NCBI GenBank assembly: GCA_019058315.1
Contig: JAHPZH010000006.1
Span: 249,715 to 313,714, forward strand
Length of the DNA stretch: 64,000 nucleotides
Direction of reading: 5' to 3'
Source of the DNA: Candidatus Helarchaeota archaeon
Lineage (GTDB): Archaea > Asgardarchaeota > Lokiarchaeia > Helarchaeales > RDOG01
Shown here: piece by piece, positions 14,317-62,785 of the stretch
How positions within the stretch are numbered: the stretch's first letter is position 1
Layout: each line of letters begins with the position of its first letter
The notes under the pieces: generated by a model
Told to the model about the DNA's origin: nothing
Seen by the model: the letters and a program-made list of their open reading frames with translations, nothing else
The model's database searches: none
Made by a program: the position numbers and the translations under genes

Positions 14317-15612
14317 ATGAAAACATTAATATTAGCAGCTGGGGAAGGAAAAAGGTTAAGACCACTTACAGAAACATGTCCTAAACCTATGCTTCACATT
14401 GCTGGAAAGCCAACACTTCAACATGTTATTGAAAATTTAAAAAGTACAGGTTTAAATGATTTCGTTATAGTAGTTGGGTTTTTAAAAGAGCAAATTATGG
14501 ATTATTTTGGCACAGGCTTTGATTTTGGTGTTAAAATAAAATATGTGGAACAAAGAAAGCCAGAAGGACCTGAAGATGCCATTTTATCTGCAGAATCAGA
14601 ATTAGGGAACGAATCAGAATTTTTAATTGCACATGCTGATACTTTTTCAGACCCTACTATGATTAAAAGGACAATTGAAACTCATCAAAAATTAAATCCG
14701 GAAGCAACAATTTCAGTAACTTTGGTGGATAATCCAAGTTTATATGGTATTGTTGCTATTGATGAAGAAGCTAGAATCCAGCAAATAATTGAAAAACCGA
14801 AGCCTGGTTTTGCCCCATCTAACTTTGCGGTAACTGGAATTTATATCTTCAAATCTGAAATTTTTGATCATCTATCCAAAACTAAGCATTTAGATGATGC
14901 AATTCAGGCCATAATTACTAAAAAAGGTAATATTTATTCTTCTGTATGGGAAAAAGAATGGGTAGAAATTCGTTACCCTTGGGACATTTTAAAAGCAAAT
15001 GAATTTGTATTAAAAAGAAAATTAGAGGGTAAGGGTTCTTTTATTTCAGAATCTGCAGAAATTTCTGACGAATCTAGAATTAAGGGTCCAGTGGAAATTT
15101 CAAAAAATGTTATAATAAAAGCCGGAGCCGAAATTGTGGGTCCCTGTTTTATTGATGAAAATGCTTATATTGGTACGAATTCTTTGGTCAGAGGTCACAC
15201 CTCAATTGGGAAAAATTCAATATTAGGATATGGAACTGAGATAAAAAATAGTGTTATTTTTCCTGGAACTAAAGTAGGGCGTCTTAGCTTTATTGGTGAT
15301 AGTATTATTGGAAATGATGTTAGATTTAGATCGAGTATTCAAGTATCAAATTTTCCATCTGTAGAAAAATTAGAACCTGAAGATCCAAAAATCAAGATGA
15401 ATTTTGAGAATGAATCAATAATAGTTCCATTAAGAAAATTCGGTGCTATAATTGGAGACAAAACGGTACTAGAAAACAATGTTTCTATAGCACCCGGAAA
15501 AAAAATCGGTAGAAATTCGATTATAATGCCAGGATGTATTATAGAAAGTGATGTGGCATCAGAAACAATAGTTTCTGTAAAACAGAGTCTAGAATACAAA
15601 AAACTAAAATAA
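14317..15612 (+). CDS. Bifunctional sugar-1-phosphate nucleotidyltransferase/acetyltransferase (archaeal GlmU-like)
   Basis: ILAAGEGKRLRPLT..PKP, EKP, YPWD, C-terminal hexapeptide repeats. Confidence 0.9.
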   Translation: MKTLILAAGEGKRLRPLTETCPKPMLHIAGKPTLQHVIENLKSTGLNDFVIVVGFLKEQIMDYFGTGFDFGVKIKYVEQRKPEGPEDAILSAESELGNESEFLIAHADTFSDPTMIKRTIETHQKLNPEATISVTLVDNPSLYGIVAIDEEARIQQIIEKPKPGFAPSNFAVTGIYIFKSEIFDHLSKTKHLDDAIQAIITKKGNIYSSVWEKEWVEIRYPWDILKANEFVLKRKLEGKGSFISESAEISDESRIKGPVEISKNVIIKAGAEIVGPCFIDENAYIGTNSLVRGHTSIGKNSILGYGTEIKNSVIFPGTKVGRLSFIGDSIIGNDVRFRSSIQVSNFPSVEKLEPEDPKIKMNFENESIIVPLRKFGAIIGDKTVLENNVSIAPGKKIGRNSIIMPGCIIESDVASETIVSVKQSLEYKKLK

Positions 15613-15643: not shown

Positions 15644-16909
15644 ATGTCAGAAGAAAATGAAAAAGAATTAAAAGAAGAGAAAGAAATAAAAGATGAAAAA
15701 GTAGAATTAGAGGTAGTAAAAGAGGAAGATCAAGAAAAAATTACTGAAACTGAAGATATTGATAGAGATGCTCTTCTAGCTGAAGAAATGACATTATTAA
15801 TGAATGAATTTCAGACCGAAATAGTTGAAGGAGTAATTTCAAGAATAAGAGTCTATCTTGCTATTTCTGAACAGTTAAATTTTATTGTTGGAATCGATTT
15901 TAGCAATTTTCCAGATAAACCATTACTTACTGTGCAAGATGAATTAAAGTCTCTAATAAATCCAGATGAATTGGATACTATGAAAACTTGGAAAAAAGGT
16001 ATGCATATAGTCGAAATTTTCCGTGAATTAGAACAAAAGCTAGTTGGAATCAATAAAACAAAACAACAAGTAAGGCTAATTTCTGGAGAATTTAAATCAG
16101 AAGAAGTAGGACCTAAACAAATAAATGTTGATTTACTTACTTTTGGATTAAGGGAGTATCGAATTGAAATAGATTTAGAACCTCTCCCAAAAGTTCCTAC
16201 TATGAAATTTTCAAGTGAATTGCAAGATATGGTTAAAACAACTTATCAAGAACTTGAATCTGTAAAAAATTGGGATTTCACTATTATGTCTGTTAATGAT
16301 ATTCTCCGTGAAATTCAATGGGAAATTGATAAAAAATCAAGATTAATATTCGAAGTTGATCTACTTTGGGGCCTCGATAAAGTTGATTATAAACCCGATC
16401 AAAGAAAGATATATATTGAAATGAAAGGAAAAATGAAAACTGCAGATCAGATTTTTAAATTTGAAGTCGAACTTCCAGAAGATTACCCATCTAATCGCCC
16501 TACTATAAAGATTGTTTCAGAGGTATCAGATGATGAAGTTGCAAAACAAATGGAAAATGCAATGAAAATCTTGGATGAATGGTCCACCTTTACATACCTT
16601 GTGGATATATTTGAAACTATTTCTAAGGCAATTTTAAAAGCATCCATTATTTCATGCATTATTTGTCATAAAATGGAATGTCCTACTTGTGGTAAACCTA
16701 TGGTAGAGGTTGAAGCTCCTACAACGCCCCCCGAAGCTGCTGAAATGACCGGTGTTCCTACTGGTTCAGGAGGTACTTGCCATACTACTTGCCCTCATTG
16801 TGCAAAACCATATCATGAACACTGCTGGAACCAAAATATCCAAGCAATTAAAAAATGTGCGTTTTGTATGAGAGAGCCGTTTGTAACTTCTCCCATTCAA
16901 CAAGAGTAA
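15644..16909 (+). CDS. Putative E3 ligase: three tandem RWD/UBC-like domains plus C-terminal RING variant (FANCL-like architecture)
   Basis: Three x-P-x-x-x-P turn motifs (NFPDKP, PLPKVP, DYPSNRP), each followed by W...IF/IL; C-terminal CIIC...CPHC...HEHC...CAFC; directly upstream of E1 and E2. Confidence 0.7.
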   Translation: MSEENEKELKEEKEIKDEKVELEVVKEEDQEKITETEDIDRDALLAEEMTLLMNEFQTEIVEGVISRIRVYLAISEQLNFIVGIDFSNFPDKPLLTVQDELKSLINPDELDTMKTWKKGMHIVEIFRELEQKLVGINKTKQQVRLISGEFKSEEVGPKQINVDLLTFGLREYRIEIDLEPLPKVPTMKFSSELQDMVKTTYQELESVKNWDFTIMSVNDILREIQWEIDKKSRLIFEVDLLWGLDKVDYKPDQRKIYIEMKGKMKTADQIFKFEVELPEDYPSNRPTIKIVSEVSDDEVAKQMENAMKILDEWSTFTYLVDIFETISKAILKASIISCIICHKMECPTCGKPMVEVEAPTTPPEAAEMTGVPTGSGGTCHTTCPHCAKPYHEHCWNQNIQAIKKCAFCMREPFVTSPIQQE

Positions 16910-17027: not shown

Positions 17028-18257
17028 ATGACAACCAAAGAAAAGAAACTTTATACTCGCCATCATATGTTAGAAGGATGGGCGCAAGATTTAATCAAAG
17101 ATTCCACAGTTTTTATGATCGGAGTAGGAGCATTAGGATGTGAAATAGCTAAAAATTTAGCTTTAGTTGGTATTGGAAAAATGTACCTCTGTGATGTTGA
17201 TACAATTGAGACATCAAATCTCTCACGACAGATGCTCTTCAAACCTGGTGATGAAGGTAGAGGAAAAGCAGAAGTAGGTGCTGAAAGACTTAAGGAGTTA
17301 AATCCATTCATGGAAGTGGAACATTTTAATCAATTCCTGCAAGAAATTCCAATGAAATTCTATGAAGAATCAGATCTAGTTATTGGGGGTTTAGATAATA
17401 TAAGAGCTAGATTAGATTTAAACGATATTTGTCTTCGATTGAAAAAACCACTTATTGATTCTGGAACTCTGGGCTATGAAGGGCATGTACAAATAGTAAT
17501 TCCACCAGGGATAGAAGGGTTTGAGCAAACCCCATGTCTTCGATGCCTAATGCCAATTCCGCCAACCGATGAAAAGCTTGTAGCAGCGTGTACACCAAAA
17601 GGAATCCCACAAAAACGTGAGCATTGTGCTTTAAAGGCAGAATATGAATTCGGTAAAAAGTATAATAGAAGACCTGACTTTGAAAATGATGATGATATTG
17701 CTGTATTGGTTGAATATGCAAATAAATTTGTGGAAGAATATAAATTTCCTCCAGAATTTAATGCCGAAGATATGGAAAATGTGATAAAAAATAAAATGCC
17801 CGCAATACAAACTACAACTGCTGTGATTTCATCCATTCAATCCCATGAAATCTTAAAAATACTCCATAAATTGAAAGGTTATGATATTGGACCTTTAATG
17901 AACCCACCGTATATTAATTATAATGGAAAATATGGTTTATTTGAACAGATAGAGGTAGCTATTTGGGATGAATGTCCCGCTTGCGGTAAAGGAATTGATT
18001 TAAGAAGGATTGAAATTGAATCATCTGCAATTATTCTTTCTATTTTCGACCAATTGAAGTATGCAGGTTTTGATTTAGACCCTGATCAAACGTTAATAAC
18101 TAAAGAATTAACAAAAAAAGTAGTATGGAATCCATATGTTCCTAAATTAAAAGATCCTAATAAAACAATTGAAGAAAGTGGTATCCAAGATCACGATCTC
18201 CTTATGTGCTCTGTACCGAATCAAGAATCAATTAGAATTTTAGTAATTTATATTTAA
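17028..18257 (+). CDS. Eukaryote-like ubiquitin/Ubl-activating enzyme E1 (Uba3/Uba2-like)
   Basis: GVGALG, DTIETSNLSRQ, CLRC, catalytic AACT...EHC, PAIQTT, CPAC, and a C-terminal ubiquitin-fold-like domain. Confidence 0.9.
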   Translation: MTTKEKKLYTRHHMLEGWAQDLIKDSTVFMIGVGALGCEIAKNLALVGIGKMYLCDVDTIETSNLSRQMLFKPGDEGRGKAEVGAERLKELNPFMEVEHFNQFLQEIPMKFYEESDLVIGGLDNIRARLDLNDICLRLKKPLIDSGTLGYEGHVQIVIPPGIEGFEQTPCLRCLMPIPPTDEKLVAACTPKGIPQKREHCALKAEYEFGKKYNRRPDFENDDDIAVLVEYANKFVEEYKFPPEFNAEDMENVIKNKMPAIQTTTAVISSIQSHEILKILHKLKGYDIGPLMNPPYINYNGKYGLFEQIEVAIWDECPACGKGIDLRRIEIESSAIILSIFDQLKYAGFDLDPDQTLITKELTKKVVWNPYVPKLKDPNKTIEESGIQDHDLLMCSVPNQESIRILVIYI

Positions 18258-18530
18258 AAACTCCCCCTATTTTTAATCGATTCAAGCTATTAAGACATTT
18301 TTTTAATTAATCATAATTGTAGTATTCTAGACAATTCGAGTTCATTTATAAACGATATTTTTCACAAAACATATAAATTGAATAGTGCAGAAATCGTAAG
18401 ATATTAATGAATCCCAATCAAAATTTAAATTATTATAAAATTAAGCTAAAAACTGAAAATTGATACTTTAATATTTGAAAAAAGAAACTTCTGTTCTTTA
18501 ACGGTTGATATTTAATAAGAGGTGAAGTTA

Positions 18531-19040
18531 ATGCGAGAAGAAACAGACTATGTAGAAGCAACAAACCAATTTAGAGGAGATGATAGTGTTATCATCGAAC
18601 CTTGGGTTGACAGAGTCGATCATTTAAGAGTTATCATAGTTGGAATTTCAAATACTCCATTCCATAAAGGTAGATTCGTATTCGAAGTAAAATTACCATC
18701 AAATTTTCCTTATGCTCCCCCTTATGTGTACTGTCAGACTCTAATCTGGCATCCAAATATAGATCCAAGTGTTCCTCCAGGAAAGACGAATATTTGTTTA
18801 GATCTCATTAATCCTGATCTAATTGGGAAAGTTGATCCCCAGACTGGAGCTTCAGGTTGGACTCCTTCGAAAACTTTAATAAATGTAATAGAAGCTCTCA
18901 AAGGTATGATTCATTGCCAACCACCCTTCTTCAATCCTGATGATCCACTGAATAACAAGGCAGGAGAACAATATCAAAAAAATCCTAAAAAGTTCAATGC
19001 AGAAGCTAAAAAATGGACAGAAAAATACGCAATGAGATAA
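18531..19040 (+). CDS. Ubiquitin-conjugating enzyme E2
   Basis: TPF..G.F, FPYAPP, WHPNI, catalytic ICLD, WTPS; GAGGTGA SD before ATG 18531. Confidence 0.95.
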   Translation: MREETDYVEATNQFRGDDSVIIEPWVDRVDHLRVIIVGISNTPFHKGRFVFEVKLPSNFPYAPPYVYCQTLIWHPNIDPSVPPGKTNICLDLINPDLIGKVDPQTGASGWTPSKTLINVIEALKGMIHCQPPFFNPDDPLNNKAGEQYQKNPKKFNAEAKKWTEKYAMR

Positions 19041-19071: not shown

Positions 19072-20490
19072 ATGTCTGAAAAGAAAGAAAAGAAAGAAGA
19101 AAAAAAGGAAAAGAAGGAAGAAAAGAAGGAAGAAAAGAAAGAGGAAAAAAAAGAAGAAACGGTAATGGAAAAAAAAGAACCCTCTGGTGTTCAAGAGCCC
19201 GGTATTGTACATCTCAGCCTAAGAGCTTATCAATCTATTATACTTCATGCATCTCGATTTGCAAATTCAAAATTACCAATGGATGCTTGGAAGGAAATTT
19301 ATGGATTCCTGATAGGCAAATTGGAGGGGGAGGACGTTATAATAGAAGATGCAGTTCCTATGGCACATGGCTCGAGTGTAGAAGTCGAATTCGATGAAGA
19401 ACATTATATTAAATCAGCACAAATTGATTCTATGGCTGCCGAAAGAGGACAGTTTATGGTGGGATGGTATCATTCTCATCCTGGCTTGGGGTTATTTTTA
19501 TCAAATACAGATATAAAAAATCAACTCGGTTATCAAGGTCCAAATCCAAAAGCTATAGCGTTAGTTTTTGATCACACAAAATTAGATCCTCCAAAGCACC
19601 CAGGATTTGATATTTTCAAGTTAGATGACCCAAATTTAGGGACAATGTCGGACTTTCATGAAATAAAATATAAAATTGAAGAAGTAGATCATAAAAGTTT
19701 CACCGAATCTCTTGTTGACATGACGGAAAGAAGTGTTTCTAGGTTACCACTAATAGCCGAATTTGGAGAAGAAGGCACTATTTTTAGCTCAGGAGATGAA
19801 AGTTCCGATTCATCAATGCCATCAATAAGTACAACTCCACTTGGAGAAATACGTATTACTGTTCCGGCTATGAATATTGATCCAGCTTTAGAGGGGTTTA
19901 CACAAGGTTTTAAAAGTATGTTACAAGAAATTATGCCACCTATGTTTTCATCATTTGCTGATCAAACACAACAACTTGCCAATACATTTCAGGAATTAGG
20001 CAACCGACAAGTAAAGGCTATGAATGATTTACAAGAATTACTTTCAATTGGAATTGGAGAAGTGCGAACTCAAATTGTAAAAAAAATTGATGAAAGTCAT
20101 GAAGGATTAGTGAATGTCTCCGCAACAAACTTTGCAAACTTGACTGAGATTGTAGAGAAGACTTCCGATGACGTTTCAGACATGGAGGACCGAATAATTG
20201 ATGATGTTGTAAAGAGTAAAGATGAGATTCGAGAAAAAGTTTCAATTTCATTGTCCGAGTTTCATGATGATATAGGAAAAGAAATGGACAAAATGAAAGG
20301 CGATATTGAGGATATGGAAAAGGAAATAGTAGATAAAATAAACCTCCATATTGATAGTGTAACTGAAGAACTAACCAAAATTATTGAAATGAAAATTAGC
20401 GATAATTTAAAGGAATTTAATAAAGCAATAACAAAACGTCTTAATGATTTAGAAGAAAAAGTCGAAAAACTTAGTACAAAGGGCAGCTAA
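19072..20490 (+). CDS. JAMM/MPN+ isopeptidase (Rpn11/CSN5/BRCC36-like) with KEE-repeat N-terminus and long helical C-terminus
   Basis: EIYGFLIG and VGWYHSHPGLGLFLSNTD give an intact JAMM motif. Confidence 0.92.
   Translation: MSEKKEKKEEKKEKKEEKKEEKKEEKKEETVMEKKEPSGVQEPGIVHLSLRAYQSIILHASRFANSKLPMDAWKEIYGFLIGKLEGEDVIIEDAVPMAHGSSVEVEFDEEHYIKSAQIDSMAAERGQFMVGWYHSHPGLGLFLSNTDIKNQLGYQGPNPKAIALVFDHTKLDPPKHPGFDIFKLDDPNLGTMSDFHEIKYKIEEVDHKSFTESLVDMTERSVSRLPLIAEFGEEGTIFSSGDESSDSSMPSISTTPLGEIRITVPAMNIDPALEGFTQGFKSMLQEIMPPMFSSFADQTQQLANTFQELGNRQVKAMNDLQELLSIGIGEVRTQIVKKIDESHEGLVNVSATNFANLTEIVEKTSDDVSDMEDRIIDDVVKSKDEIREKVSISLSEFHDDIGKEMDKMKGDIEDMEKEIVDKINLHIDSVTEELTKIIEMKISDNLKEFNKAITKRLNDLEEKVEKLSTKGS
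19078..19160 (+). repeat. Purine-rich low-complexity repeat encoding (KKEE)n
   Basis: aagaaagaaaagaaagaagaa... reiterated at the start of the JAMM gene. Confidence 0.85.
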
Positions 20491-20570: not shown

Positions 20571-21398
20571 TTAATCAATTGTACTTTTTCCACAAAGTAA
20601 ACAATTCTCTGCTCCTTCTAATTTCCACGTATCAATTGTTGAATTATATAAATCAATAATAGTTCGATTTGGAATTTCACTCCACCCTAATAAATAATGA
20701 ACCATATAACTAATAGCCATGTTGGAAACAATTGCGGCAGTATAATTTGTAGATGCTGCTAAAGGATGTTCCTGTTTATCTGCAATTTTATCAATTGGGA
20801 TACTATTTTGGTTGATAATATTGTTTGGAGAAAAAATACTCTGAAATTCAGTTGCAATTGAAGCAAGAGAGGCTTGTAAACATTCATAACATGGATAACC
20901 GTCTGGTTTTTGGTAAAGAATCATACCTGCATTACCACTAATAACATCAGTTCCAGCATAGATCATTGGTTTATGATTTTTTAAACAAAGAGAGGATACT
21001 GCTACTCGTTTAATTTCTGGGCAATCTAGTCCATTTAGAACAAAATCAGCTTCTTTGATTAGAGGAATAAAATCAGTCCAATTTTTAAAAATATCAAGAT
21101 CAATTGCTTCAATGGTAGTGTTAATTGCATGAAAAAATTCAAGATTTTTCTTAGCCACATTTACTTTTTTATTCCCAATCTCATTTTTATTAAATAATAT
21201 CTGGCGATTTAAATTAGAGGGTTCGATGATGTCATGATCAACTAAAACAATTTTTTTTATACCGAGTCTACAGCAACTCACAGCCATATGGGTTCCCATA
21301 CCTCCAACTCCTACAATTAGTATATTTTTCTTTAATGATTCTTGGTTCCAATTGGGAATTAATTTTTGACGATGAAAAAAATTCATATTTAAAACCAT
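20571..21398 (-). CDS. ThiF/MoeB/E1-like adenylyltransferase
   Basis: GVGGMG, DHDIIEPSNLNRQ, PCYEC, C-terminal CLLC; no Cys in the crossover loop. Confidence 0.9.
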   Translation of the reverse strand: MVLNMNFFHRQKLIPNWNQESLKKNILIVGVGGMGTHMAVSCCRLGIKKIVLVDHDIIEPSNLNRQILFNKNEIGNKKVNVAKKNLEFFHAINTTIEAIDLDIFKNWTDFIPLIKEADFVLNGLDCPEIKRVAVSSLCLKNHKPMIYAGTDVISGNAGMILYQKPDGYPCYECLQASLASIATEFQSIFSPNNIINQNSIPIDKIADKQEHPLAASTNYTAAIVSNMAISYMVHYLLGWSEIPNRTIIDLYNSTIDTWKLEGAENCLLCGKSTID

Positions 21399-21468: not shown

Positions 21469-22653
21469 GTGGTTTCTTTGAGTGAACTAAAGATTGAGGA
21501 CACCATTCTGTGTGTAGACACAAGTCGTAGCATGTTTAGAAAAGATTTTGACCCCAATCGAATACAAGCGGTCAAGAATGGGTTGAAAGAATTTGTACAA
21601 ATGAAAAACCAACTCGATGATAGAGATAGGTTTGCTATTGTAGTTTTTTCTTCAGAGGCTAAAATAAAATTAGAAATGACAAATGATGTTGACGATATAC
21701 ATAGCGCGATAGATACAATTAAAATTGGTGGTACAACTGGTTTAGGTGAAGGTTTAGCCGTGGGAATACAATTAGTTGTTAAAGAAATCCAGCAAGTTGG
21801 AGCTAAAGTTTATAGAATGTTAGTTATATCCGATGGTAAACCTTGGGTTTCAACAATAAATCCTCTGAAAATGAGTAAAATTGCTTCAGGACTTAAACTT
21901 TCTGTTGATACTATAGGTTTATTCGAGCTTGGAGTAGCTTATCAGGAAAGCATTTTAGAGAAGATCTCATCTGAGACAAATGGAGAATATGCAAGGGTTT
22001 ATGATACCACATCATTAAGAGAAAGTTTATCAAATTTTGCGAATAAAAAAGAAATTCCATATTCCGCATCTCAAGAAGAATTGGAGTCAACTACTGCATT
22101 ATTTCTTGAATCAATTGCAGGAGAGCTACTACATCCAGCAGATTTGTCGGAATCCCAAGAGCAGTTAATTAATCTCTTGTTAGGTAAAGAAAAAAATAAA
22201 TGTACTATTTGTTTTCAAGATATTTGCCCAATTTGTCACGGTCCGTTCTATGCGTGTGGTAGATATTGTCCAAATTGCAAAAGTCCTATGCATTTACATT
22301 GTGCAGCTGAATGGGCTGCCGCCACAAAAGCTGAAGGTGAAAGTGCTTTTAGATGCACACGCTGCTTCTTTTTATTAAGAGTCCCAAAATCAATAAGCAA
22401 AGTTAAACTAATTAGAGGCTCCCGAACAAGGACTTATGAGGAACAAACTCAAGACGTAACACGTTTTAAATTAATAAAACAAGATTCAGAGGATTTATTA
22501 AATTCAGTGTGCCCAATTTGCCATATGATATTCGAAAAACCGCCAGCTTATTATTGTCCAACATGTTCTACTTATTATCATCCTAAATGTCTTGATAAAT
22601 ATCTACAAAATGAAATGTCATGTCGTGTCTGTGGTAAGAAGATTGAATTATAA
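21469..22653 (+). CDS. vWA domain plus two RING-type Zn fingers (Ssl1/p44- or Rpn10-like vWA; putative E3)
   Basis: MIDAS DTSRSM, KDFDPNR, T, SDG; RING1 at 22201-22365 and RING2 at 22510-22632. Confidence 0.82.
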   Translation: MVSLSELKIEDTILCVDTSRSMFRKDFDPNRIQAVKNGLKEFVQMKNQLDDRDRFAIVVFSSEAKIKLEMTNDVDDIHSAIDTIKIGGTTGLGEGLAVGIQLVVKEIQQVGAKVYRMLVISDGKPWVSTINPLKMSKIASGLKLSVDTIGLFELGVAYQESILEKISSETNGEYARVYDTTSLRESLSNFANKKEIPYSASQEELESTTALFLESIAGELLHPADLSESQEQLINLLLGKEKNKCTICFQDICPICHGPFYACGRYCPNCKSPMHLHCAAEWAAATKAEGESAFRCTRCFFLLRVPKSISKVKLIRGSRTRTYEEQTQDVTRFKLIKQDSEDLLNSVCPICHMIFEKPPAYYCPTCSTYYHPKCLDKYLQNEMSCRVCGKKIEL

Positions 22654-25077: not shown

Positions 25078-26655
25078 TTATTCAATTAAACTAATTTTCA
25101 TTTGTGTAATTTTATATAAAATCTCTTTTTTTGCTATTTTTAATTCTTCAAATTTATTCTGATATTCTTCTTCAGAAATATTTTGGTAATTTGATTCAAG
25201 ATCTGAAATTTGAGCATTAATCTTCTTTAATTGTAGTTCTAGATTCAAAATATCCTTTTTTATGTTATTTTGTTTAATTATTACTCCTATGGGTTTGGAC
25301 TCACCATTTTCTTTTATTTGCTCTGGAACTTTCTTGATTTCTTTTACATTTTGATCTGATTTATTTAATAATGATGTGAGTTCATCTGATTTTACGGTTG
25401 TGGGTATTTTTACAGGAATTTCTGGTCCTAAAGGTTTGGGAGCTTTGGGTGTGGTTTTTTGTTTTATAGATTTAGGAATTTCTGGTATAGCTCCTACTTC
25501 TTTTGGAGTAACAGGTTTAATTTGTGGTTTTAATTCTTTGTGTTCATCAATTTTGGAGGGTTTTTCAGGTTCAGCTGATAATTCTTCTTTGAGTTTTTCA
25601 GTTTCTGAAATACTAATAATTTTTGATTTTATCCATTTTGCTCTTTCTAAAAATTCATTAGCTATTTTAGAATCTCCTAATTCAATACAATATTTTGCGA
25701 TATTTTCAAATATCATAATTGCAGTTTGAAATTCTCCATTTGTTAAAGCTTTTTCTGCATCCTCAACTAATTTATCACGATCTAATAATGGTTTTATTAA
25801 GGGAGATACTTGTGAGGTGATTCCTAATGTCTGAGCAACTATTTCAATCATTTTTGCACGATTATCTGGGTCAACAGCAATCATACCATGAGTTTTAGCT
25901 CCTATGAGTTTTTCAACTTCTTTCTCTGTTAATGCATCGGGAAGATCTTGTTTATTTGCAACTGCAGATAATCTAGCTGTAGGGACATTTTCATTAGTTA
26001 ATTTTATGAAAAATCTGGATTTCTCAATATTTCTTAATGTAGAATCAGTAATAATTAAAACTGCGTCAGAATCTTTGACGAATTTTGGCCATAGAAATGA
26101 AAATTGTTCTTGACCTGCGAAATCCCATAAATTAAAATGTAATTTGCCAATTTTCACCGTATAAATATCACCAGTCATGGTTGGATTATGCACTTTCGGA
26201 ATTTCATCCGCTCTAATTAATTTTGTAATTGTAGTCTTTCCTACTCCACTAAACCCTAACAAAGCAATTTTTGGTCTTAGATCCTTATGTATAAGATCTG
26301 AAATAGGATTTAAAGAGTCAAATACAGATGGATCATTTGCAGATTCAACAACTTTTTTAGAAAATAAATCTTGAAATTCCTCTTTTAATCTATCTAATTG
26401 TTTTTTAATTAATTTATCATTATCTGTAAGATCAGTAACAAACACAAATAATAAGTTCATTTCTCTAGTAGAAGTATATGAAACTTTAAATCGCATAAGG
26501 TCAGGTAAAACTCCTTCAAATACCTCCGGACTTGATTCAATTGAACTGCTAAAAGAAAATAAAATGGGTGCCAAGGTTTCCCAAGGAATGGCGTCTCCAA
26601 ATTGCCTCCAATATATGAGATCTGTACCCCTAAGGATATGAATTTCTCTCAACAT
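25078..26655 (-). CDS. Longin + Arf-like small GTPase + helical bundle + Pro-rich linker + coiled coil
   Basis: GFSGVGKTT, PT, WDFAGQ, NKQD; N-terminal longin-like LLFVFVTD...F..LF. Confidence 0.88.
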   Translation of the reverse strand: MLREIHILRGTDLIYWRQFGDAIPWETLAPILFSFSSSIESSPEVFEGVLPDLMRFKVSYTSTREMNLLFVFVTDLTDNDKLIKKQLDRLKEEFQDLFSKKVVESANDPSVFDSLNPISDLIHKDLRPKIALLGFSGVGKTTITKLIRADEIPKVHNPTMTGDIYTVKIGKLHFNLWDFAGQEQFSFLWPKFVKDSDAVLIITDSTLRNIEKSRFFIKLTNENVPTARLSAVANKQDLPDALTEKEVEKLIGAKTHGMIAVDPDNRAKMIEIVAQTLGITSQVSPLIKPLLDRDKLVEDAEKALTNGEFQTAIMIFENIAKYCIELGDSKIANEFLERAKWIKSKIISISETEKLKEELSAEPEKPSKIDEHKELKPQIKPVTPKEVGAIPEIPKSIKQKTTPKAPKPLGPEIPVKIPTTVKSDELTSLLNKSDQNVKEIKKVPEQIKENGESKPIGVIIKQNNIKKDILNLELQLKKINAQISDLESNYQNISEEEYQNKFEELKIAKKEILYKITQMKISLIE

Positions 26656-60900: not shown

Positions 60901-62785
60901 AAATATAAAAAATATTAAATTTATACAAGTATCTGACCTAGAAGAGCTTAAAAAAGCTGTTAATAGCTTAATTAGTATCATTAAGCAGTTTAAAACTAAA
61001 CTGATCATAGTTAATCAGCCAATTCCTCTTATTAGGCAGCAGTTAGTCATAGAAAACGAACAAGTTTTAATAACAACCATTGCAAAACGGGCAGATGTGG
61101 CTACAAAAATAAGTTGGGCTCTTAGTAAAATTGCAGGAAATCACAATATAATTGTGTTATTAACCCATGTAATTTATAAGGAAGAAGAAAAAGAAACACT
61201 CCCCTATCAGAATATGGCTAAATTTCATACGGAATTATTCTTAGAAAGAGATATGGGTAGATACTTGAAATTACATTTAACAGAAGAGGATCTTTATAGG
61301 GATTTTTGTAATTCGGTTCTAAGAAAAGGAAAATCTTCAGAATTATCATTATCAGACTTTTGCCATCCTCATATATTAATGCAGACAAATGAAATTCTCG
61401 ATGATGATCTTTACAAAGATTACCCTGAATTACAATTCTGCATGGAAGGAATGAATATTGCAGGAATAAAATATGTGCTTTTTATTTTCAACTCATTTAT
61501 AGCTCCTGATAAAGTTGATAAATTAAGAAACAGGATTGAAGTAAAAAGAGGTCAAAATATCGATATCTGCTTATGGTATAATAGTAATTTCCATATCTAT
61601 AATTTTGATAAAAGAAATATTAATTTAAAGGTTCTTTTAAAGTTCGGAGGGGAGATAGATGGTGACCAAATAAAATTTGATAAGGAAAAATACTCTAAAT
61701 TCTTTAAATCATTTGGAGAGTTTTTTATAGAATTACTTAATGTAAATATCGAACATCAAATTTCTGATTATAAACAATTTTTAAAAATTTTAGAAGTGTT
61801 TAGTCTTAATTTCTTTCAAGAAGCATGGTTCGATTTTGATTCACGAATAATTAAGGATGATATAATTAATGGGATAAATCCAATTAACAAGAAAAAAATA
61901 ATAAAAAGGATCACCGATTTTTTTGAATCATCTATCCATATGAAATCAGGATTAAGAGTCAGATGGTACGAATTACATATTCAATTATTGAATTATTTAA
62001 ATCTAGATAAGGCTCAAGAATTTCTTAACTTATTATTTAATCATTTCTATAAATTTAATGATTGGTCAGATATTAATATTGTTAGAGAAAGTATAAAACA
62101 CTTCTTGAATCAAATATTGTTTTCTATTTTATTAAATAGAATTCGGGCAGAACGGGAAATAAATCTCAAGATTATAAGTAATTTTTTTGAAGATTTAACA
62201 ATTAGAGAATTCAGAGGATTAATTAGGGAACTATTAAAATTGGAGAAGATTGAAGGATATATTGAAAACTCAATTTTTAAAATTGATTCAATAATTGGAG
62301 AATTTGTTTACCAATTTGAAGAAATTTTAAAAAATAAACAACTAGGTCCTTATAAAACACACATTAAACCTCAAATTATTGAACCCATACCTATTAAAGA
62401 GGAATATGTAGAAGAACTGGAACGTCTTAATTATAATCACCCTGCCCTCGAATATTGTAAAGCTGGTGAAACAGATTTTGGACAAAGATTTCTATTATTT
62501 GAATTTAACGATTTTATCCATAAAAAAGAACAAACTGAATTTCGAGAGAATATCACTGAAATGCGAGATTTAGATATCTGTCTTTGGATAGATGGCAATG
62601 TTTCAATTTATAATAGAAATCCTCTATTCGTAAATTTAGGAATTATTGTTATTGAACTCTTAGATGGGGAAATCCGATCGAAGGACAGGGAAATTCTATT
62701 TATTTATGAATCAGAATATGAGAAATTTGGATCTTTTAAAGATTTAATAAATCAAATTACTAAGCTTGACTTAAAAAATCCATAA
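54983..62785 (+). CDS. cas1: Giant fusion: SF2 helicase - wHTH - Zn fingers - Cas1 - DHH/DHHA1 - degenerate RadA-like - two DHHA1-like repeats
   Basis: APTGKGKT/DESH/HAG/QMIGR; Cas1 motifs ARQMVYAKIMSN, AEG, DKYNACLNYLY, AG..GILH, DFMDSYRP; DHH motifs HVDFDG, AD, DHH; SIR...GHETA. Start codon uncertain. Confidence 0.85.
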   Translation: MIKLIELFLIIFLNFPSLLVLISFLYILFLSISKHINYADGYARKKGFLIENYYDYQKDGYKIILSGESIFIVAPTGKGKTELAKLALSRSLSKKKVGVYLVPTVMLLHQKAKELEEFYENEVKILIMQAEIKPRNEDLKDALGHTIIVATYEAFRSFLFEIQKRRYFNTRKPFGSVVIDESHMLGNESRGAKLETMLLKLQKEHNPQFCFLSGSFSEKSAKKWAKKFNCKLRYDSLERNFKGKIVEKFDADYKGIDPKLLRMKKDEKRDLTITECNIFFKSHIIESKMAIKPGKMLIFTYSRRAAEELCYDIYNFLWSKYFDYRKNIFCDYIHAGIDLERRKQIFNSFMSEDGIRFLFCSPVLEVGVDIKNIHAILITDGEIYNTVELTQMIGRSREEGSLIIFLIARKKIKTLKNKLIYNDELNKKYINNLTVLPRGHFFFKGFKLEDIKSQLSLEIIPILALERLFHHQIDLNKLKDHIYSTLSAIAEVDIRKEIIRKLKVYEDFLAKKQRIHNWKEKNKEDIKDFSTAELKKELKRITPLAIENRTQFHYSKLQFREYIRSSRKKIGLTYIGEATVESQINIQTADKLLHFFKTNQKPPSHKCRSLISQLVAKNATAGDPRFRDEGEDKEYIEAKRENIQEFLENFRWDIKTEKISSLKSDFYEGDIENYRKTAIWLSASLYLFYRGFLIHDYVKDIIKKPKEDYWEVDFNERLDEYKKSINRIRRLYRRYQKDPREKRNRKPGIWRHRENWRNKGPSKLDKQILKELKKSGTDGFTVKELYMKIYGDVSFRKIRGHLQNSLADKVEYIIEYGHTGRPNKRYFLKEYFNKPKYKTCNECQYLKYDPTERKKKGESKYKCNFHDNRRIFPKQRACEEFIEKVRMSFKFSSFKFIKNRPKCPGCGQINSIIIPPHGFLSICKNCWIVVFRGERGMFQARKGLQIPAYKLKEKNGFLVAKKRNYKWGIIVKRDFELEVDKDPRSGIYRFFVSKTKRRYFADAVGRITLFGGIISNEAEKVIEDHKIEVIEHSQEEIKRSEQQEKIENELRERVWKRRRKGELIEVARQMVYAKIMSNVIYTIKLGRQILKEWKRESLLEMYEEELKYKQLDRIVLTYLFYDPDIKLTWRDREEIIDILNKFRSAEGNAEIAAWESVKRVLSRKYQFIGRQSQRYAQTILYYGAKAYDKYNACLNYLYQLLQEKAGKALEKAGFNRFFPGPGILHYRIKKRERHRKYKNFYSIMTKKNKELLFDFMDSYRPTIRYYFGEFLRNDELDDSKDIWWGLDELRRRVYYVSETGKNKLKILFEEICSRKFYYKNESKTILEIMETEAQNLADYLKSEESLEYVPFCAFETREDAQWVFHIVQTIDKILGNGKIPEYMDLKPEETPKKDISIEPEIVHSTSILDPRVNICIVPHVDFDGYKSALNLTFMHSRNKSISIFPATNSYQFNYIETVLEKKVSRALKHDQRNIIYIADFPFFHSRMQFLNRLHKRFQTYGLKVEIIWFDHHPATESEEQLSLRKIFMERRGWKFYYSRKDDTQDIITRYMNQIMEKHKSFKESDRKESMDLNNWLKITREIIIFEEGYLFYRYYLYHLFKKGEKINLASFFRDLYGYKLPRKRKGLRKYLDRQKKLIKHPEKLLYYWEFGWTCDHFYFAAFIFRKDFSISKLDELIHNLGEDPNGIDMIICCWDNKTISIRASKRSGVNLHNIFNKNMGHETAIGILNPMCEYLGVDEWEDEYHYINIGHYITFDEVLVRIKISSLFDYDKQYQERFAATKLNIKAYDDDFFTTLKFQRPSKLCFPTYLKEFDKLLQPKTEIRFQAPDKIRTNTEIKIKEDLEGITFAYVYKADKRYNLDIVSDIPVGEEIRLTLNNKVELGIDLNKDDFIIIKGSEKIPKRGGYYCGSYNYMLCHKNEEQYLLDLICYLMLAAQDKNGLNSENVVCINANKFPFYQNLLNIAKKNKDFNLENIKNIKFIQVSDLEELKKAVNSLISIIKQFKTKLIIVNQPIPLIRQQLVIENEQVLITTIAKRADVATKISWALSKIAGNHNIIVLLTHVIYKEEEKETLPYQNMAKFHTELFLERDMGRYLKLHLTEEDLYRDFCNSVLRKGKSSELSLSDFCHPHILMQTNEILDDDLYKDYPELQFCMEGMNIAGIKYVLFIFNSFIAPDKVDKLRNRIEVKRGQNIDICLWYNSNFHIYNFDKRNINLKVLLKFGGEIDGDQIKFDKEKYSKFFKSFGEFFIELLNVNIEHQISDYKQFLKILEVFSLNFFQEAWFDFDSRIIKDDIINGINPINKKKIIKRITDFFESSIHMKSGLRVRWYELHIQLLNYLNLDKAQEFLNLLFNHFYKFNDWSDINIVRESIKHFLNQILFSILLNRIRAEREINLKIISNFFEDLTIREFRGLIRELLKLEKIEGYIENSIFKIDSIIGEFVYQFEEILKNKQLGPYKTHIKPQIIEPIPIKEEYVEELERLNYNHPALEYCKAGETDFGQRFLLFEFNDFIHKKEQTEFRENITEMRDLDICLWIDGNVSIYNRNPLFVNLGIIVIELLDGEIRSKDREILFIYESEYEKFGSFKDLINQITKLDLKNP

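What the first reader, a model, noticed from the sequence alone, without database searches (positions are those of the whole stretch)
15644..16909. FANCL-like architecture (three E2-like folds plus C4HC3-type RING) in an archaeon
Three ~95-aa repeats carry the UBC/RWD 'YPxxxP' turn and lack a catalytic Cys; they are followed by a RING with C..C...P(Y/F)HxxC...CxxC spacing. Eukaryotic FANCL is ELF + double RWD + C4HC3 RING, the same order and count. This is a candidate archaeal relative of the Fanconi anaemia E3, or a convergent assembly.
Basis: partly seen in the sequence, partly recalled or inferred. Interest (0 to 1): 0.72.

Follow-up and report, generated by a model that had tools for sequence, protein, structure and literature searches.

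The report
Asgard pseudo-E2 array RING ligase
An Asgard archaeon encodes a probable ubiquitin ligase with three inactive E2-like folds and a three-zinc RING finger; human FANCL is its nearest solved look-alike, but common descent is not shown.

Summary
Window 15644-16909 (+) encodes a 421-aa protein. It has an acidic disordered tail and three helix/four-strand-meander/helix units without any cysteine. These are followed by a Cys/His-rich domain with 12 conserved metal ligands.

- Unit 3 is a UBC/RWD fold (Z 10-11.7).
- Units 1 and 2 are duplicates of each other (hhalign E 2e-16). They link to true E2s only through the extra N-terminal unit that longer relatives carry.
- A model of the zinc domain alone matches only RING/U-box domains. 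Its ligands align one for one with RBX1, including RBX1's third zinc site.
- Foldseek's best solved match to the whole model is human FANCL (E 7.9e-8, collinear), followed by BRE. A language-model search also ranks FANCL clusters first among eukaryotic families.
- No sequence method links the protein to FANCL specifically.
- The family occurs in at least 94 Asgard species genomes, often with four units. It usually lies upstream of ileS. Only Helarchaeota-like genomes place it beside an E1.

Best reading: a RING E3 or scaffold of the Asgard ubiquitin system with a FANCL-like layout. Common descent with FANCL is open. This scan had already flagged the same family in several other genomes, with similar verdicts.

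The parts
15644..16909 (+). Whole gene: 421-aa pseudo-E2 array plus RING protein (P0001)
   Evidence: ORF and translation. 34 clusters of full-length relatives. 94 Asgard species genomes.
15644..15745 (+). Acidic, disordered N-terminal tail (aa 1-34)
   Evidence: pLDDT 32-36. Poorly conserved and replaced by an extra UBC-like unit (D0) plus linker in the 540-620-aa relatives.
15746..16006 (+). Unit D1 (aa 35-121): UBC/RWD-like pseudo-E2 fold with FPDKP turn and W116
   Evidence: Secondary structure H35-55, E57-97 and short helices. hhalign D1~D2 98.7% (E 2e-16) and D0~D1 97.6%. D0 matches the true E2 profile at 92.8% and Pfam UQ_con above its cut-off. D1 gives no direct match to E2.
16007..16291 (+). 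Unit D2 (aa 122-216): second pseudo-E2 fold with LPKVP turn and W210
   Evidence: H122-149, E151-189. hhalign D1~D2 and D0~D2 95.9%. No Cys.
16292..16651 (+). Unit D3 (aa 217-336): UBC/RWD fold with YPSNRP turn and W313; Cys and HPN are lost. It starts with the most conserved helix of the protein (R222, W226, D229, R233, F236, E237, L240, L241 invariant).
   Evidence: Pfam UQ_con 3.1e-7 (30.5 bits, cut-off 27) and RWD 8e-4. VIA Z 10-11.7, rmsd 2.2-3.0 over about 100 aa against E2s, RWDD1 and GCN2 RWD. hhalign to the E2 family 84%. Invariant columns.
16652..16879 (+). Zinc domain (aa 337-412): C4HC3 RING core with an inserted third zinc site. Inferred sites: I = C338, C341, H391, C394; II = C383, C386, C405, C408; III = C346, C349, C379, H393.
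   Evidence: Invariant ligands in 70 sequences. Ligand-for-ligand alignment to RBX1, E 0.017-0.03. In the domain-only model (pLDDT 70.7) all 50 best of 48,161 chains are RING/U-box domains, and the Foldseek list is dominated by RING E3 domains, rmsd 0.8-1.6 over 32-34 aa. The site assignment is an inference; the coordinates could not be inspected.
16718..16768 (+). Variable, disordered Pro/Ala/Thr-rich loop inside the zinc domain (aa 359-375)
   Evidence: pLDDT below 50. Length varies from 0 to about 40 residues among relatives.
17028..18257 (+). E1-type activating enzyme (P0003), 118 bp downstream
   Evidence: Pfam ThiF 2.9e-57. NCBIfam Ube1 subfamily 1e-37. E3-E1 adjacency is repeated in L001, L002 and L004.
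18522..19040 (+). Active E2 (P0007) with H77-P-N79 and C92; the likely true start is at 18531
   Evidence: UQ_con 5.1e-26. 86 Asgard relatives at 48-91% identity with H77, N79 and C92 invariant.
19072..20490 (+). JAMM/MPN+ deubiquitinase with a long C-terminal coiled coil (P0008)
   Evidence: JAB 8.3e-14. Closest solved relatives are the Caldiarchaeum Rpn11-like protein 6fjv (7e-16), Rpn11 and CSN5; BRCC36 scores only 2e-5 to 6e-4.
20571..21398 (-). Second, short ThiF-only E1-like protein
   Evidence: ThiF 4e-40.
21469..22653 (+). vWA (Ssl1-like) protein with C-terminal RING-type fingers
   Evidence: VWA_2 7.5e-17, Ssl1 3.9e-8, zf-RING_2 2e-4, zf-ANAPC11 3e-3.
14317..15612 (+). Sugar-nucleotidyltransferase/hexapeptide gene 31 bp upstream; conserved upstream neighbour in the Helarchaeota-like loci
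   Evidence: NTP_transferase 1.9e-41. Same order NTP-E3-E1 in L001, L002 and L004.

Best explanation
P0001 is a RING-type ubiquitin (or ubiquitin-like) ligase or ligase scaffold of the Asgard ubiquitin system.

The C-terminal three-zinc RING is a C4HC3 cross-brace with an RBX1/APC11-style inserted zinc site. It would dock a charged E2, most plausibly the conserved E2 encoded two genes downstream, which the adjacent E1 would charge.

The three catalytically dead E2-like folds arose by internal duplication of one UBC-type unit. They would form a rigid, helix-linked array that binds substrate, ubiquitin or partner proteins. Non-catalytic UBC/RWD/UEV domains do this in FANCL, BRE, Listerin and RNF25.

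Shown here: the folds, the loss of the active site, the conserved metal ligands, the RING-class fold, the family's range and the gene context. Inferred: E2 binding, ligase activity, the zinc-site assignment and the role of the array.

The resemblance to FANCL is one of layout. Common descent is neither shown nor excluded.
For: - Fold of the units: D3 is a UBC/RWD fold. D1 and D2 are duplicates linked to E2s through D0. No Cys occurs before aa 338.
- Zinc ligands: 12 conserved ligands with an RBX1-like layout.
- RING fold: the top 50 of 48,161 chains are all RING/U-box, and the Foldseek list is dominated by RING E3 domains.
- E2-contact positions: a hydrophobic pair between C338 and C341 ([IV][IV]), invariant W395 after C394 and a basic residue two positions after C408 are conserved. 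I judge these to be typical E2-contact positions from my own knowledge of RING-E2 complexes.
- Modular reuse: the same zinc module is fused to beta-helix and LRR domains in other Asgard proteins, the usual build of E3s.
- Gene context: the gene sits with an E1, an active E2 and a JAMM DUB, and E3-E1 adjacency recurs in three related genomes.
- Modifier supply: ubiquitin genes exist elsewhere in the genome, including an 81-aa protein ending in GG.
- Whole-model matches: FANCL, BRE and Listerin are the best hits. FANCL, RWD-RING and Listerin clusters are the nearest eukaryotic families by language-model features.
Against: - There is no biochemical evidence.
- In most genomes (49 of 80 loci immediately, 59 of 80 within 6 kb) the neighbour is ileS, not ubiquitin-system genes. 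The ubiquitin-operon context is therefore lineage-specific.
- No ubiquitin gene lies in this locus.
- The match to RBX1 is marginal (E about 0.02). Pfam RING models hit family members only below their cut-offs, and zf-rbx1 does not hit this gene at E<=10.
- Z scores for the small zinc domain are low in absolute terms (at most 4.3).
Confidence: 0.7

Rival explanations
1. The family is a true homologue (ancestor or sister) of eukaryotic FANCL. D1, D2, D3 and the zinc domain would then correspond by descent to ELF, RWD-N, RWD-C and the RING.
For: FANCL is the top Foldseek hit with an end-to-end collinear alignment: 7kzp_L 7.9e-8 and 9a0j_L 2.6e-7, with fly 3k1l_B at 9.3e-4. FANCL clusters are the nearest eukaryotic families by language-model features, at 0.90, 0.89 and 0.88. 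The C4HC3 core carries a P-[YF]-H-x2-C motif. The family is Asgard-wide, as expected for a pre-eukaryotic gene. D1-D2-D3-Zn is the commonest architecture among family representatives.
Against: No FANCL Pfam family hits any of 32 members at E<=1, and FANCL_C does not hit the gene at E<=10. Profiles retrieve E2s and RBX1 from PDB sequences, not FANCL. Per-domain structural similarity to FANCL is no better than to kinetochore RWDs or other RINGs. The RING has a third zinc site. Both positive methods respond to architecture, and FANCL and BRE are, as far as I know, the only solved proteins with three tandem UBC-like folds. No FancD2 match was found in the genome, although that search's control genomes also found nothing.
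Confidence: 0.15
2. It is a BRE/BRCC45-like non-catalytic scaffold of a JAMM deubiquitinase complex. The locus would be a BRISC/BRCA1-A-like module made of a tandem-UEV protein, a JAMM coiled-coil protein and a vWA protein.
For: BRE is the second family in Foldseek (6gvw_C 3.8e-6, 382 columns; 6h3c_C 3.3e-4). Pfam BRE hits 9 of 32 members weakly, best 4.5e-5. The window holds a JAMM protein with a coiled coil and a vWA protein within 6 kb.
Against: The JAMM domain is closest to Rpn11 and CSN5, not BRCC36. The BRE Pfam hits are short, fall below the cut-off and cover only the turn-motif segment. As far as I know BRE has no RING. The vWA protein is Ssl1-like and has RING fingers. The JAMM and vWA genes are not neighbours of the family in any of 80 other loci.
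Confidence: 0.07
3. It is a ligase, but its work is linked to translation or the ribosome, like the RWD-RING modules of Listerin, RNF25 and RNF14, rather than to DNA repair.
For: ileS (TIGR00392, 792 bits) is the immediate same-strand downstream gene in 49 of 80 loci and lies within 6 kb in 59 of 80, across several Asgard lineages, with a median gap of 157 bp. The best structural match of the zinc domain among 48,161 chains is the Listerin RING (Z 4.3 and 4.1). The Listerin RWD region is among the whole-model hits. Listerin and RWD+RING clusters are among the nearest feature hits. All 32 members hit Pfam RWD.
Against: Conserved gene order with a housekeeping gene may be historical. The gaps of 77-429 bp allow separate promoters. 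In this genome the neighbour is an E1, not ileS. Z 4.3 is weak.
Confidence: 0.15
4. It is not a ligase. The zinc domain would be a structural or PHD-like binding module, and the protein an adaptor that reads ubiquitin or other marks.
For: The C-x2-C-x4-H-x2-C core also fits the PHD consensus. The PHF21A and MLL3 PHD fingers appear among the weak profile hits. UEV/RWD arrays are binding modules.
Against: Structural neighbours are RING/U-box E3 domains, not PHD fingers. The hydrophobic and Trp positions used for E2 contact are invariant.
Confidence: 0.08

Closest known systems
FANCL (Fanconi anaemia core-complex E3; PDB 7kzp_L, 3k1l, 3zqs, 4ccg)
   Same: Three tandem Cys-less UBC/RWD-type folds followed directly by a C4HC3-type RING, in the same order. 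Best whole-model Foldseek hit and nearest eukaryotic family by language-model features.
   Different: No sequence-level signal. A third zinc site in the RING. Many relatives have four units. No FA partners were found. The context is a ubiquitin operon or ileS rather than DNA repair.
RBX1 / RBX2 / APC11 three-zinc RING-H2 fingers
   Same: The zinc domain aligns to RBX1 with C338/C341, C346/C349, C379, C386, H391, H393, C394 and C405 opposite RBX1 C42/C45, C53/C56, C68, C75, H80, H82, C83 and C94. Structural matches: RBX2 Z 3.5, APC11 Z 3.2, RBX1 Z 2.9.
   Different: E-values are marginal (0.017-0.03). Ligand 4 is Cys (C383, placed before C386) instead of His after it. There is no cullin-binding N-terminal strand. 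Here the finger is fused to pseudo-E2 folds.
Listerin (LTN1) C-terminal RWD-RING module; also RNF25 (RWD+RING)
   Same: A non-catalytic UBC-like fold immediately before a RING. The Listerin RING is the best structural match of the zinc domain (Z 4.3, 54 aa, 20-24% identity). The Listerin RWD is among the whole-model hits.
   Different: Listerin has one RWD after a long HEAT solenoid. No sequence-level link was shown.
BRE/BRCC45 (BABAM2) of BRISC and BRCA1-A
   Same: Three tandem UEV-like folds. Second family in Foldseek. Weak Pfam BRE hits.
   Different: BRE has no RING, and the partners do not match.
Archaeal small RING finger E3s of E1/E2/RING operons (Caldiarchaeum cascade, PMC5654768; Pfam Prok-RING_1)
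   Same: A prokaryotic RING working with a eukaryote-like E1, E2 and Rpn11-like JAMM protein. Prok-RING_1 hits 15 of 32 members weakly. The genome's own small RING protein carries a similar CPHC..P.H motif.
   Different: Those are single-domain proteins of about 90 aa. This one carries a three- or four-unit pseudo-E2 array and a third zinc site.

Membership tests
UBC/RWD (E2-fold) superfamily, non-catalytic branch | alpha-beta(4)-alpha UBC fold in each repeat | tested here: met
   D3: Z 10-11.7 against E2s and RWDs and Pfam UQ_con above its cut-off. D1 and D2: the same secondary-structure pattern and hhalign links D1~D2 (E 2e-16), D0~D1, D0~D2 and D0~E2. D1 and D2 were not fold-searched on their own.
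UBC/RWD (E2-fold) superfamily, non-catalytic branch | Loss of the catalytic Cys and the HPN triad | tested here: met
   No Cys in aa 1-337. No Cys at the active-site column in 103 relatives, and HPN is replaced.
RING/U-box cross-brace fold | Eight ligands in C-x2-C ... C-x2-C-x4-H-x2-C ... C-x2-C order, and a RING fold | tested here: met
   Invariant ligands. In the domain-only model all 50 best of 48,161 chains are RING/U-box. Foldseek core rmsd 0.8-1.6 over 32-34 aa. Cross-brace pairing is inferred, because the coordinates could not be inspected.
RBX1/APC11-type three-zinc RING | An insertion between ligand pairs 1 and 2 that carries C-x2-C...C, plus a His next to ligand 6, forming a third zinc site | tested here: inconclusive
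   A position-for-position match to RBX1, but at E 0.017-0.03. Pfam zf-rbx1 hits the genome's paralogue (0.002-0.003) but not this gene. Zinc stoichiometry was not measured.
FANCL | Domain order ELF, double RWD, RING (three E2-like folds plus RING) | tested here: met
   Collinear Foldseek alignments to 7kzp_L (409 columns of a 370-aa chain), 9a0j_L and 3k1l_B.
FANCL | Sequence membership in Pfam FANCL_d1, FANCL_d2, FANCL_d3 or FANCL_C | tested here: not met
   No hit at E<=1 in 32 members. FANCL_C does not hit the gene at E<=10. The FANCL RING is not retrieved by the zinc-domain profile at E<=10.
FANCL | Two-zinc C4HC3 RING | tested here: inconclusive
   The C4HC3 core is present, but four further conserved ligands indicate a third zinc site. 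The FANCL RING 4ccg_Y scores Z 2.7, below Listerin at 4.3.
FANCL | Works with UBE2T, FANCB/FAAP100 and the FANCD2-FANCI substrate | tested here: inconclusive
   No FancD2 match in the 94%-complete genome, but the control genomes gave no match either. The other partners were not searched.
BRE/BRCC45 | Three UEV-like folds without a RING, bound to BRCC36-Abraxas and MERIT40 | tested here: not met
   A RING is present. BRE Pfam hits fall below the cut-off and are short. The local JAMM protein is Rpn11/CSN5-like. Those neighbours are absent from 80 other loci.
Listerin C-terminal module | A UBC_like/RWD fold directly followed by a RING, at the end of a HEAT solenoid | tested here: inconclusive
   RWD-RING juxtaposition and the best RING match. 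Pfam UBC_like hits 13 of 32 members, most below its cut-off. There is no solenoid.

The most novel reading that the evidence does not exclude
This Asgard-wide family is the prokaryotic stock from which eukaryotic ligases that join non-catalytic E2/RWD folds to a RING were derived: FANCL, and perhaps the Listerin and RNF25 C-terminal modules. Multi-domain pseudo-E2 RING ligases with an RBX1-like three-zinc finger would then predate eukaryotes.
Probability: 0.18. Interest if true: 0.85.

Novelty: new variant of a known kind. Interest (0 to 1): 0.6.

Why it matters
Known archaeal ubiquitin cascades use small, single-domain RING proteins. An Asgard-wide ligase candidate with an array of dead E2 folds and a three-zinc, RBX1-like RING would show something new. 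It would mean that complex, scaffold-type E3 architecture existed in the archaeal relatives of eukaryotes; until now that architecture has been described only for eukaryotic ligases such as FANCL, Listerin and RNF25. It would also give a testable candidate for the origin of RWD-RING ligases. The partners needed for reconstitution are at hand: the E1 and E2 in this locus and the ubiquitins encoded elsewhere in the genome. I found no paper describing the family. Public records call it an E2, an RWD protein or hypothetical.

Tried and rejected
- Complex prediction. D3+RING (aa 217-421, alignment A1) was folded with the neighbouring E2 (alignment A3). The result was 'no answer' (score 0.19, mark 0.32). 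It carries no weight either way.
- BRISC-like reading. Rejected as the main explanation, for the reasons given under the rivals.
- Ubiquitin-operon context as a family trait. Rejected. Only this window and L001, L002 and L004 have an E1 beside the gene, and an E2 and JAMM protein follow only in this window.
- Direct profile match of D1 and D2 to E2s. None (hhalign probability below 1%). The link is transitive, through D0.
- FANCL Pfam families, FANCL_C over the genome and FancD2. No support.
- Eukaryotic members. Of the 10 profile hits looked up, every one that carries a source name is labelled as an Asgard lineage; 182 hits reached E<=1e-3 in 1.84 billion representatives. The remaining hits have no taxonomy, so eukaryotic members are not excluded.
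- Literature. Searches for Asgard with FANCL, RWD or RING, and two structure-based surveys of Asgard proteins, gave no description of this family.
- Not done. I could not obtain FANCL or BRE sequences through the tools, so no profile-profile comparison with them was made. 
Full report
WHAT IS THERE

Window 15644-16909 (+) is an intact ORF of 421 aa, P0001. The window has about 30% G+C. All named relatives are from Asgard archaea, chiefly Helarchaeota, Lokiarchaeota and 'Promethearchaeota' metagenome-assembled genomes (MAGs). An AlphaFold2 model built on 32 relatives is confident outside three disordered stretches (mean pLDDT 79.3).

The model has four parts after an acidic tail (aa 1-34):
- D1, aa 35-121: a long helix, a four-strand meander and short helices.
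- D2, aa 122-216: the same pattern.
- D3, aa 217-336: the same pattern.
- A Cys/His-rich domain, aa 337-412, interrupted by a variable loop (aa 359-375).

THE THREE UNITS

D3 is a UBC/RWD fold.
- Pfam UQ_con scores 30.5 bits against a cut-off of 27, and RWD gives 8e-4.
- VIA-align gives Z 10-11.7 at rmsd 2.2-3.0 over about 100 residues against many E2s, RWDD1 and the GCN2 RWD.
- The family profile retrieves Ubc13- and Ubc4-type E2s from PDB sequences, best 1.4e-4.

D1 and D2 give no Pfam hit. I sliced a 103-sequence alignment into units and compared them with hhalign.

| Pair | Probability | E-value |
|---|---|---|
| D1-D2 | 98.7% | 2e-16 |
| D0-D1 | 97.6% | 4.6e-12 |
| D0-D2 | 95.9% | 5.5e-9 |
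| D0-D3 | 93.6% | 2.1e-7 |
| D1-D3 | 37.5% | 3.5e-4 |

D0 is an extra N-terminal unit found in the 540-620-aa relatives.
- D0 matches the profile of the true Asgard E2 at 92.8%, and D3 at 84%. D0 also passes Pfam UQ_con.
- D1 and D2 do not match the E2 profile directly.
- All units are therefore homologous UBC-type folds made by internal duplication. For D1 and D2 this rests on transitive homology plus the secondary-structure pattern, not on a fold search of their own.

The active site is gone.
- P0001 has no cysteine before residue 338.
- In 103 relatives no Cys occupies the active-site column. The one partly conserved Cys (46% of sequences) aligns to S152 in D2 strand 1.
- HPN is replaced in D3.

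The turn motif is YPSNRP in D3, but FPDKP in D1 and LPKVP in D2. The prolines and a following Trp (W116, W210, W313) are invariant. The most conserved stretch of the whole protein is the helix that opens D3 (R222, W226, D229, R233, F236, E237, L240, L241). This makes it a likely interaction surface, which is an inference.

THE ZINC DOMAIN

In 70 diverse sequences C338, C341, H342, C346, C349, C379, C383, C386, H391, C394, C405 and C408 are invariant, and H393 is at least 90% conserved.

A profile of the domain aligns to RBX1 at E 0.017-0.03. Ligands match one for one, including those of RBX1's inserted third zinc site.
- From that alignment, and from what I recall of the RBX1 structure, I infer three sites:

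| Site | Ligands |
|---|---|
| I | C338, C341, H391, C394 |
| II | C383, C386, C405, C408 |
| III | C346, C349, C379, H393 |

Site III is additional.

A model of the domain alone (pLDDT 70.7) was compared with 48,161 representative chains.
- All 50 best matches are RING or U-box domains.
- Scores:

| Match | Z |
|---|---|
| Listerin | 4.3 and 4.1 |
| RNF4 | 3.9 |
| RBX2 | 3.5 |
| APC11 | 3.2 |
| RBX1 | 2.9 |
| FANCL 4ccg_Y | 2.7 |

- Foldseek's list is likewise dominated by RING E3 domains, with core rmsd 0.8-1.6 over 32-34 residues.
- Absolute scores are low, as expected for about 60 ordered residues. The uniformity of the list is the evidence.
- Positions that usually contact E2s are conserved: the [IV][IV] pair between C338 and C341, W395, and a basic residue two positions after C408. 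That these are E2-contact positions comes from my own knowledge.
- The same zinc module is fused to beta-helix and LRR domains in other Asgard proteins, which is how substrate-binding modules are attached to RINGs in E3s.

COMPARISON WITH FANCL AND OTHERS

Against 350,542 PDB chains, Foldseek's best whole-model hits are:

| Hit | E-value | Note |
|---|---|---|
| Human FANCL 7kzp_L | 7.9e-8 | 409 columns for a 370-aa chain, so end to end |
| Human FANCL 7kzp_M | 2.6e-7 | |
| Human FANCL 9a0j_L | 2.6e-7 | |
| BRE 6gvw_C | 3.8e-6 | |
| Knl1 8ppr_K | 1.2e-5 | double RWD |
| Human FANCL central domain 3zqs_A | 5.4e-4 | TMt 0.49 |
| Listerin 9gy4_F | 5.7e-4 | |
| Fly FANCL 3k1l_B | 9.3e-4 | |

- Global TM-scores are low (0.2-0.3) because the relative orientation of the domains differs.
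- A protein-language-model search independently lists eukaryotic FANCL clusters as the nearest non-Asgard families (0.90, 0.89, 0.88). After them come an arthropod RWD+zf-C3HC4 cluster and Listerin C-terminal fragments. These scores are leads only.

Nothing ties the family to FANCL beyond layout.

Both positive methods respond to architecture. FANCL and BRE are, as far as I know, the only solved proteins with three tandem UBC-like folds. Common descent is therefore open. I put it at about 0.15-0.2.

DISTRIBUTION AND CONTEXT

- A pattern scan of 185,579 species genomes found 94 that encode a relative. The best 80 were kept; most carry Asgard lineage labels, some are labelled only 'uncultured archaeon' and one is labelled Bathyarchaeota.
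- A full HMM search of 1.84 billion representatives found 182 hits. Architectures include D1-D2-D3-Zn (35), D0-D1-D2-D3-Zn (16), many D1-only proteins (74) and Zn-only proteins (18). Of the 10 hits looked up, every one that carries a source name is labelled as an Asgard lineage.
- The usual neighbour is isoleucyl-tRNA synthetase. It is the immediate downstream gene on the same strand in 49 of 80 loci and lies within 6 kb in 59 of 80, with a median gap of 157 bp.
- Only the Helarchaeota-like loci L001, L002 and L004 share the order sugar nucleotidyltransferase, E3, E1 that is seen here.
- The further run of active E2 (H77/N79/C92 invariant), JAMM coiled-coil DUB (Rpn11/CSN5-like), a second ThiF protein and a vWA-RING protein was seen only in this window.
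- No ubiquitin gene lies in the locus. The 5.8-Mb genome has six ubiquitin-fold matches, among them a compact operon of E1, E2, ubiquitin (ending RTEGG), a small RING protein and a UEV-like protein on another contig.
- The genome also has a 434-aa paralogue (26% identity, same architecture) beside a Roadblock gene.

MECHANISM

The best-supported reading is a RING E3 or E3 scaffold. The three-zinc RING would recruit a charged E2, and the helix-linked pseudo-E2 array would bind substrate, ubiquitin or partners.
- Shown: the folds, the dead active sites, the conserved ligands, the RING-class fold, the modular reuse of the finger and the local ubiquitin-system context.
- Inferred: E2 binding, catalysis, the zinc-site assignment and what the array binds.
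- The ileS adjacency, together with the Listerin and RWD affinities, makes a translation-linked role a serious alternative for the family's substrates.
- The BRISC-like reading is weak.

NOVELTY

The proteins are in public databases as 'E2', 'RWD domain-containing' or hypothetical. I found no paper that describes the architecture. This scan had already flagged the family in at least five other genomes with similar verdicts.

- The duplication history of the units.
- The RBX1-type layout of the third zinc site.
- The RING-class fold of the isolated domain.
- The finding that ileS, not ubiquitin genes, is the family's usual neighbour.
- The modular reuse of D1 and of the zinc finger.

Noticed in passing
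window 54983-62785 (+), with 50454-53045 (-) and 53158-54633 (-): A 2600-aa ORF joins a DEAD/Helicase_C helicase (aa 55-396) to a Cas1 domain (aa 994-1227, 4e-9). It lies next to a family-B DNA polymerase and an OrfB_IS605/TnpB gene. This looks like a casposon-like element in an Asgard genome.
   Followed up: no
L081 (own genome, contig C10:103134-106334): A compact second ubiquitin operon: E1, an active E2 (156 aa), an 81-aa ubiquitin ending RTEGG, an 87-aa small RING protein and a UEV-like protein. It could supply the modifier for the window's locus, which has no ubiquitin gene.
   Followed up: partly
L006:7232-10378 and 48 other loci: ileS is the immediate same-strand downstream neighbour of the family in 49 of 80 Asgard loci (gaps 77-429 bp). 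Sugar-nucleotide and glycosyltransferase genes recur nearby. The conserved order is unexplained.
   Followed up: partly
L088:1483-2787 (-) (own genome, contig C5): A 434-aa paralogue with the same D1-D2-D3-RING layout (26% identity). Its RING matches Pfam zf-rbx1 over the full profile (0.002). It lies beside a Roadblock/LC7 gene.
   Followed up: partly
P0108, P0126, P0136 (beta-helix + Zn) and P0118 (LRR + Zn); 74 D1-only proteins such as P0092 and P0097: Both the three-zinc finger and the D1-type pseudo-E2 unit are reused in many other Asgard proteins of 115-760 aa, most without any Pfam domain.
   Followed up: partly
window 21469-22653 (+) and 20571-21398 (-): An Ssl1-like vWA protein with two RING-type fingers and a short ThiF-only E1-like protein complete the locus. 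vWA plus zinc fingers recalls TFIIH p44/Ssl1.
   Followed up: no
window 25078-26655 (-): A 525-aa protein with an Arf/Roc-type small GTPase domain (aa 122-255) inside a larger frame, a typical Asgard eukaryote-like gene.
   Followed up: no
window 18258-18530: A 265-bp gap separates the E1 from the E2. The E2's listed GTG start (18522) lies three codons upstream of the ATG (18531) that matches the conserved MREE N-terminus of its relatives.
   Followed up: partly
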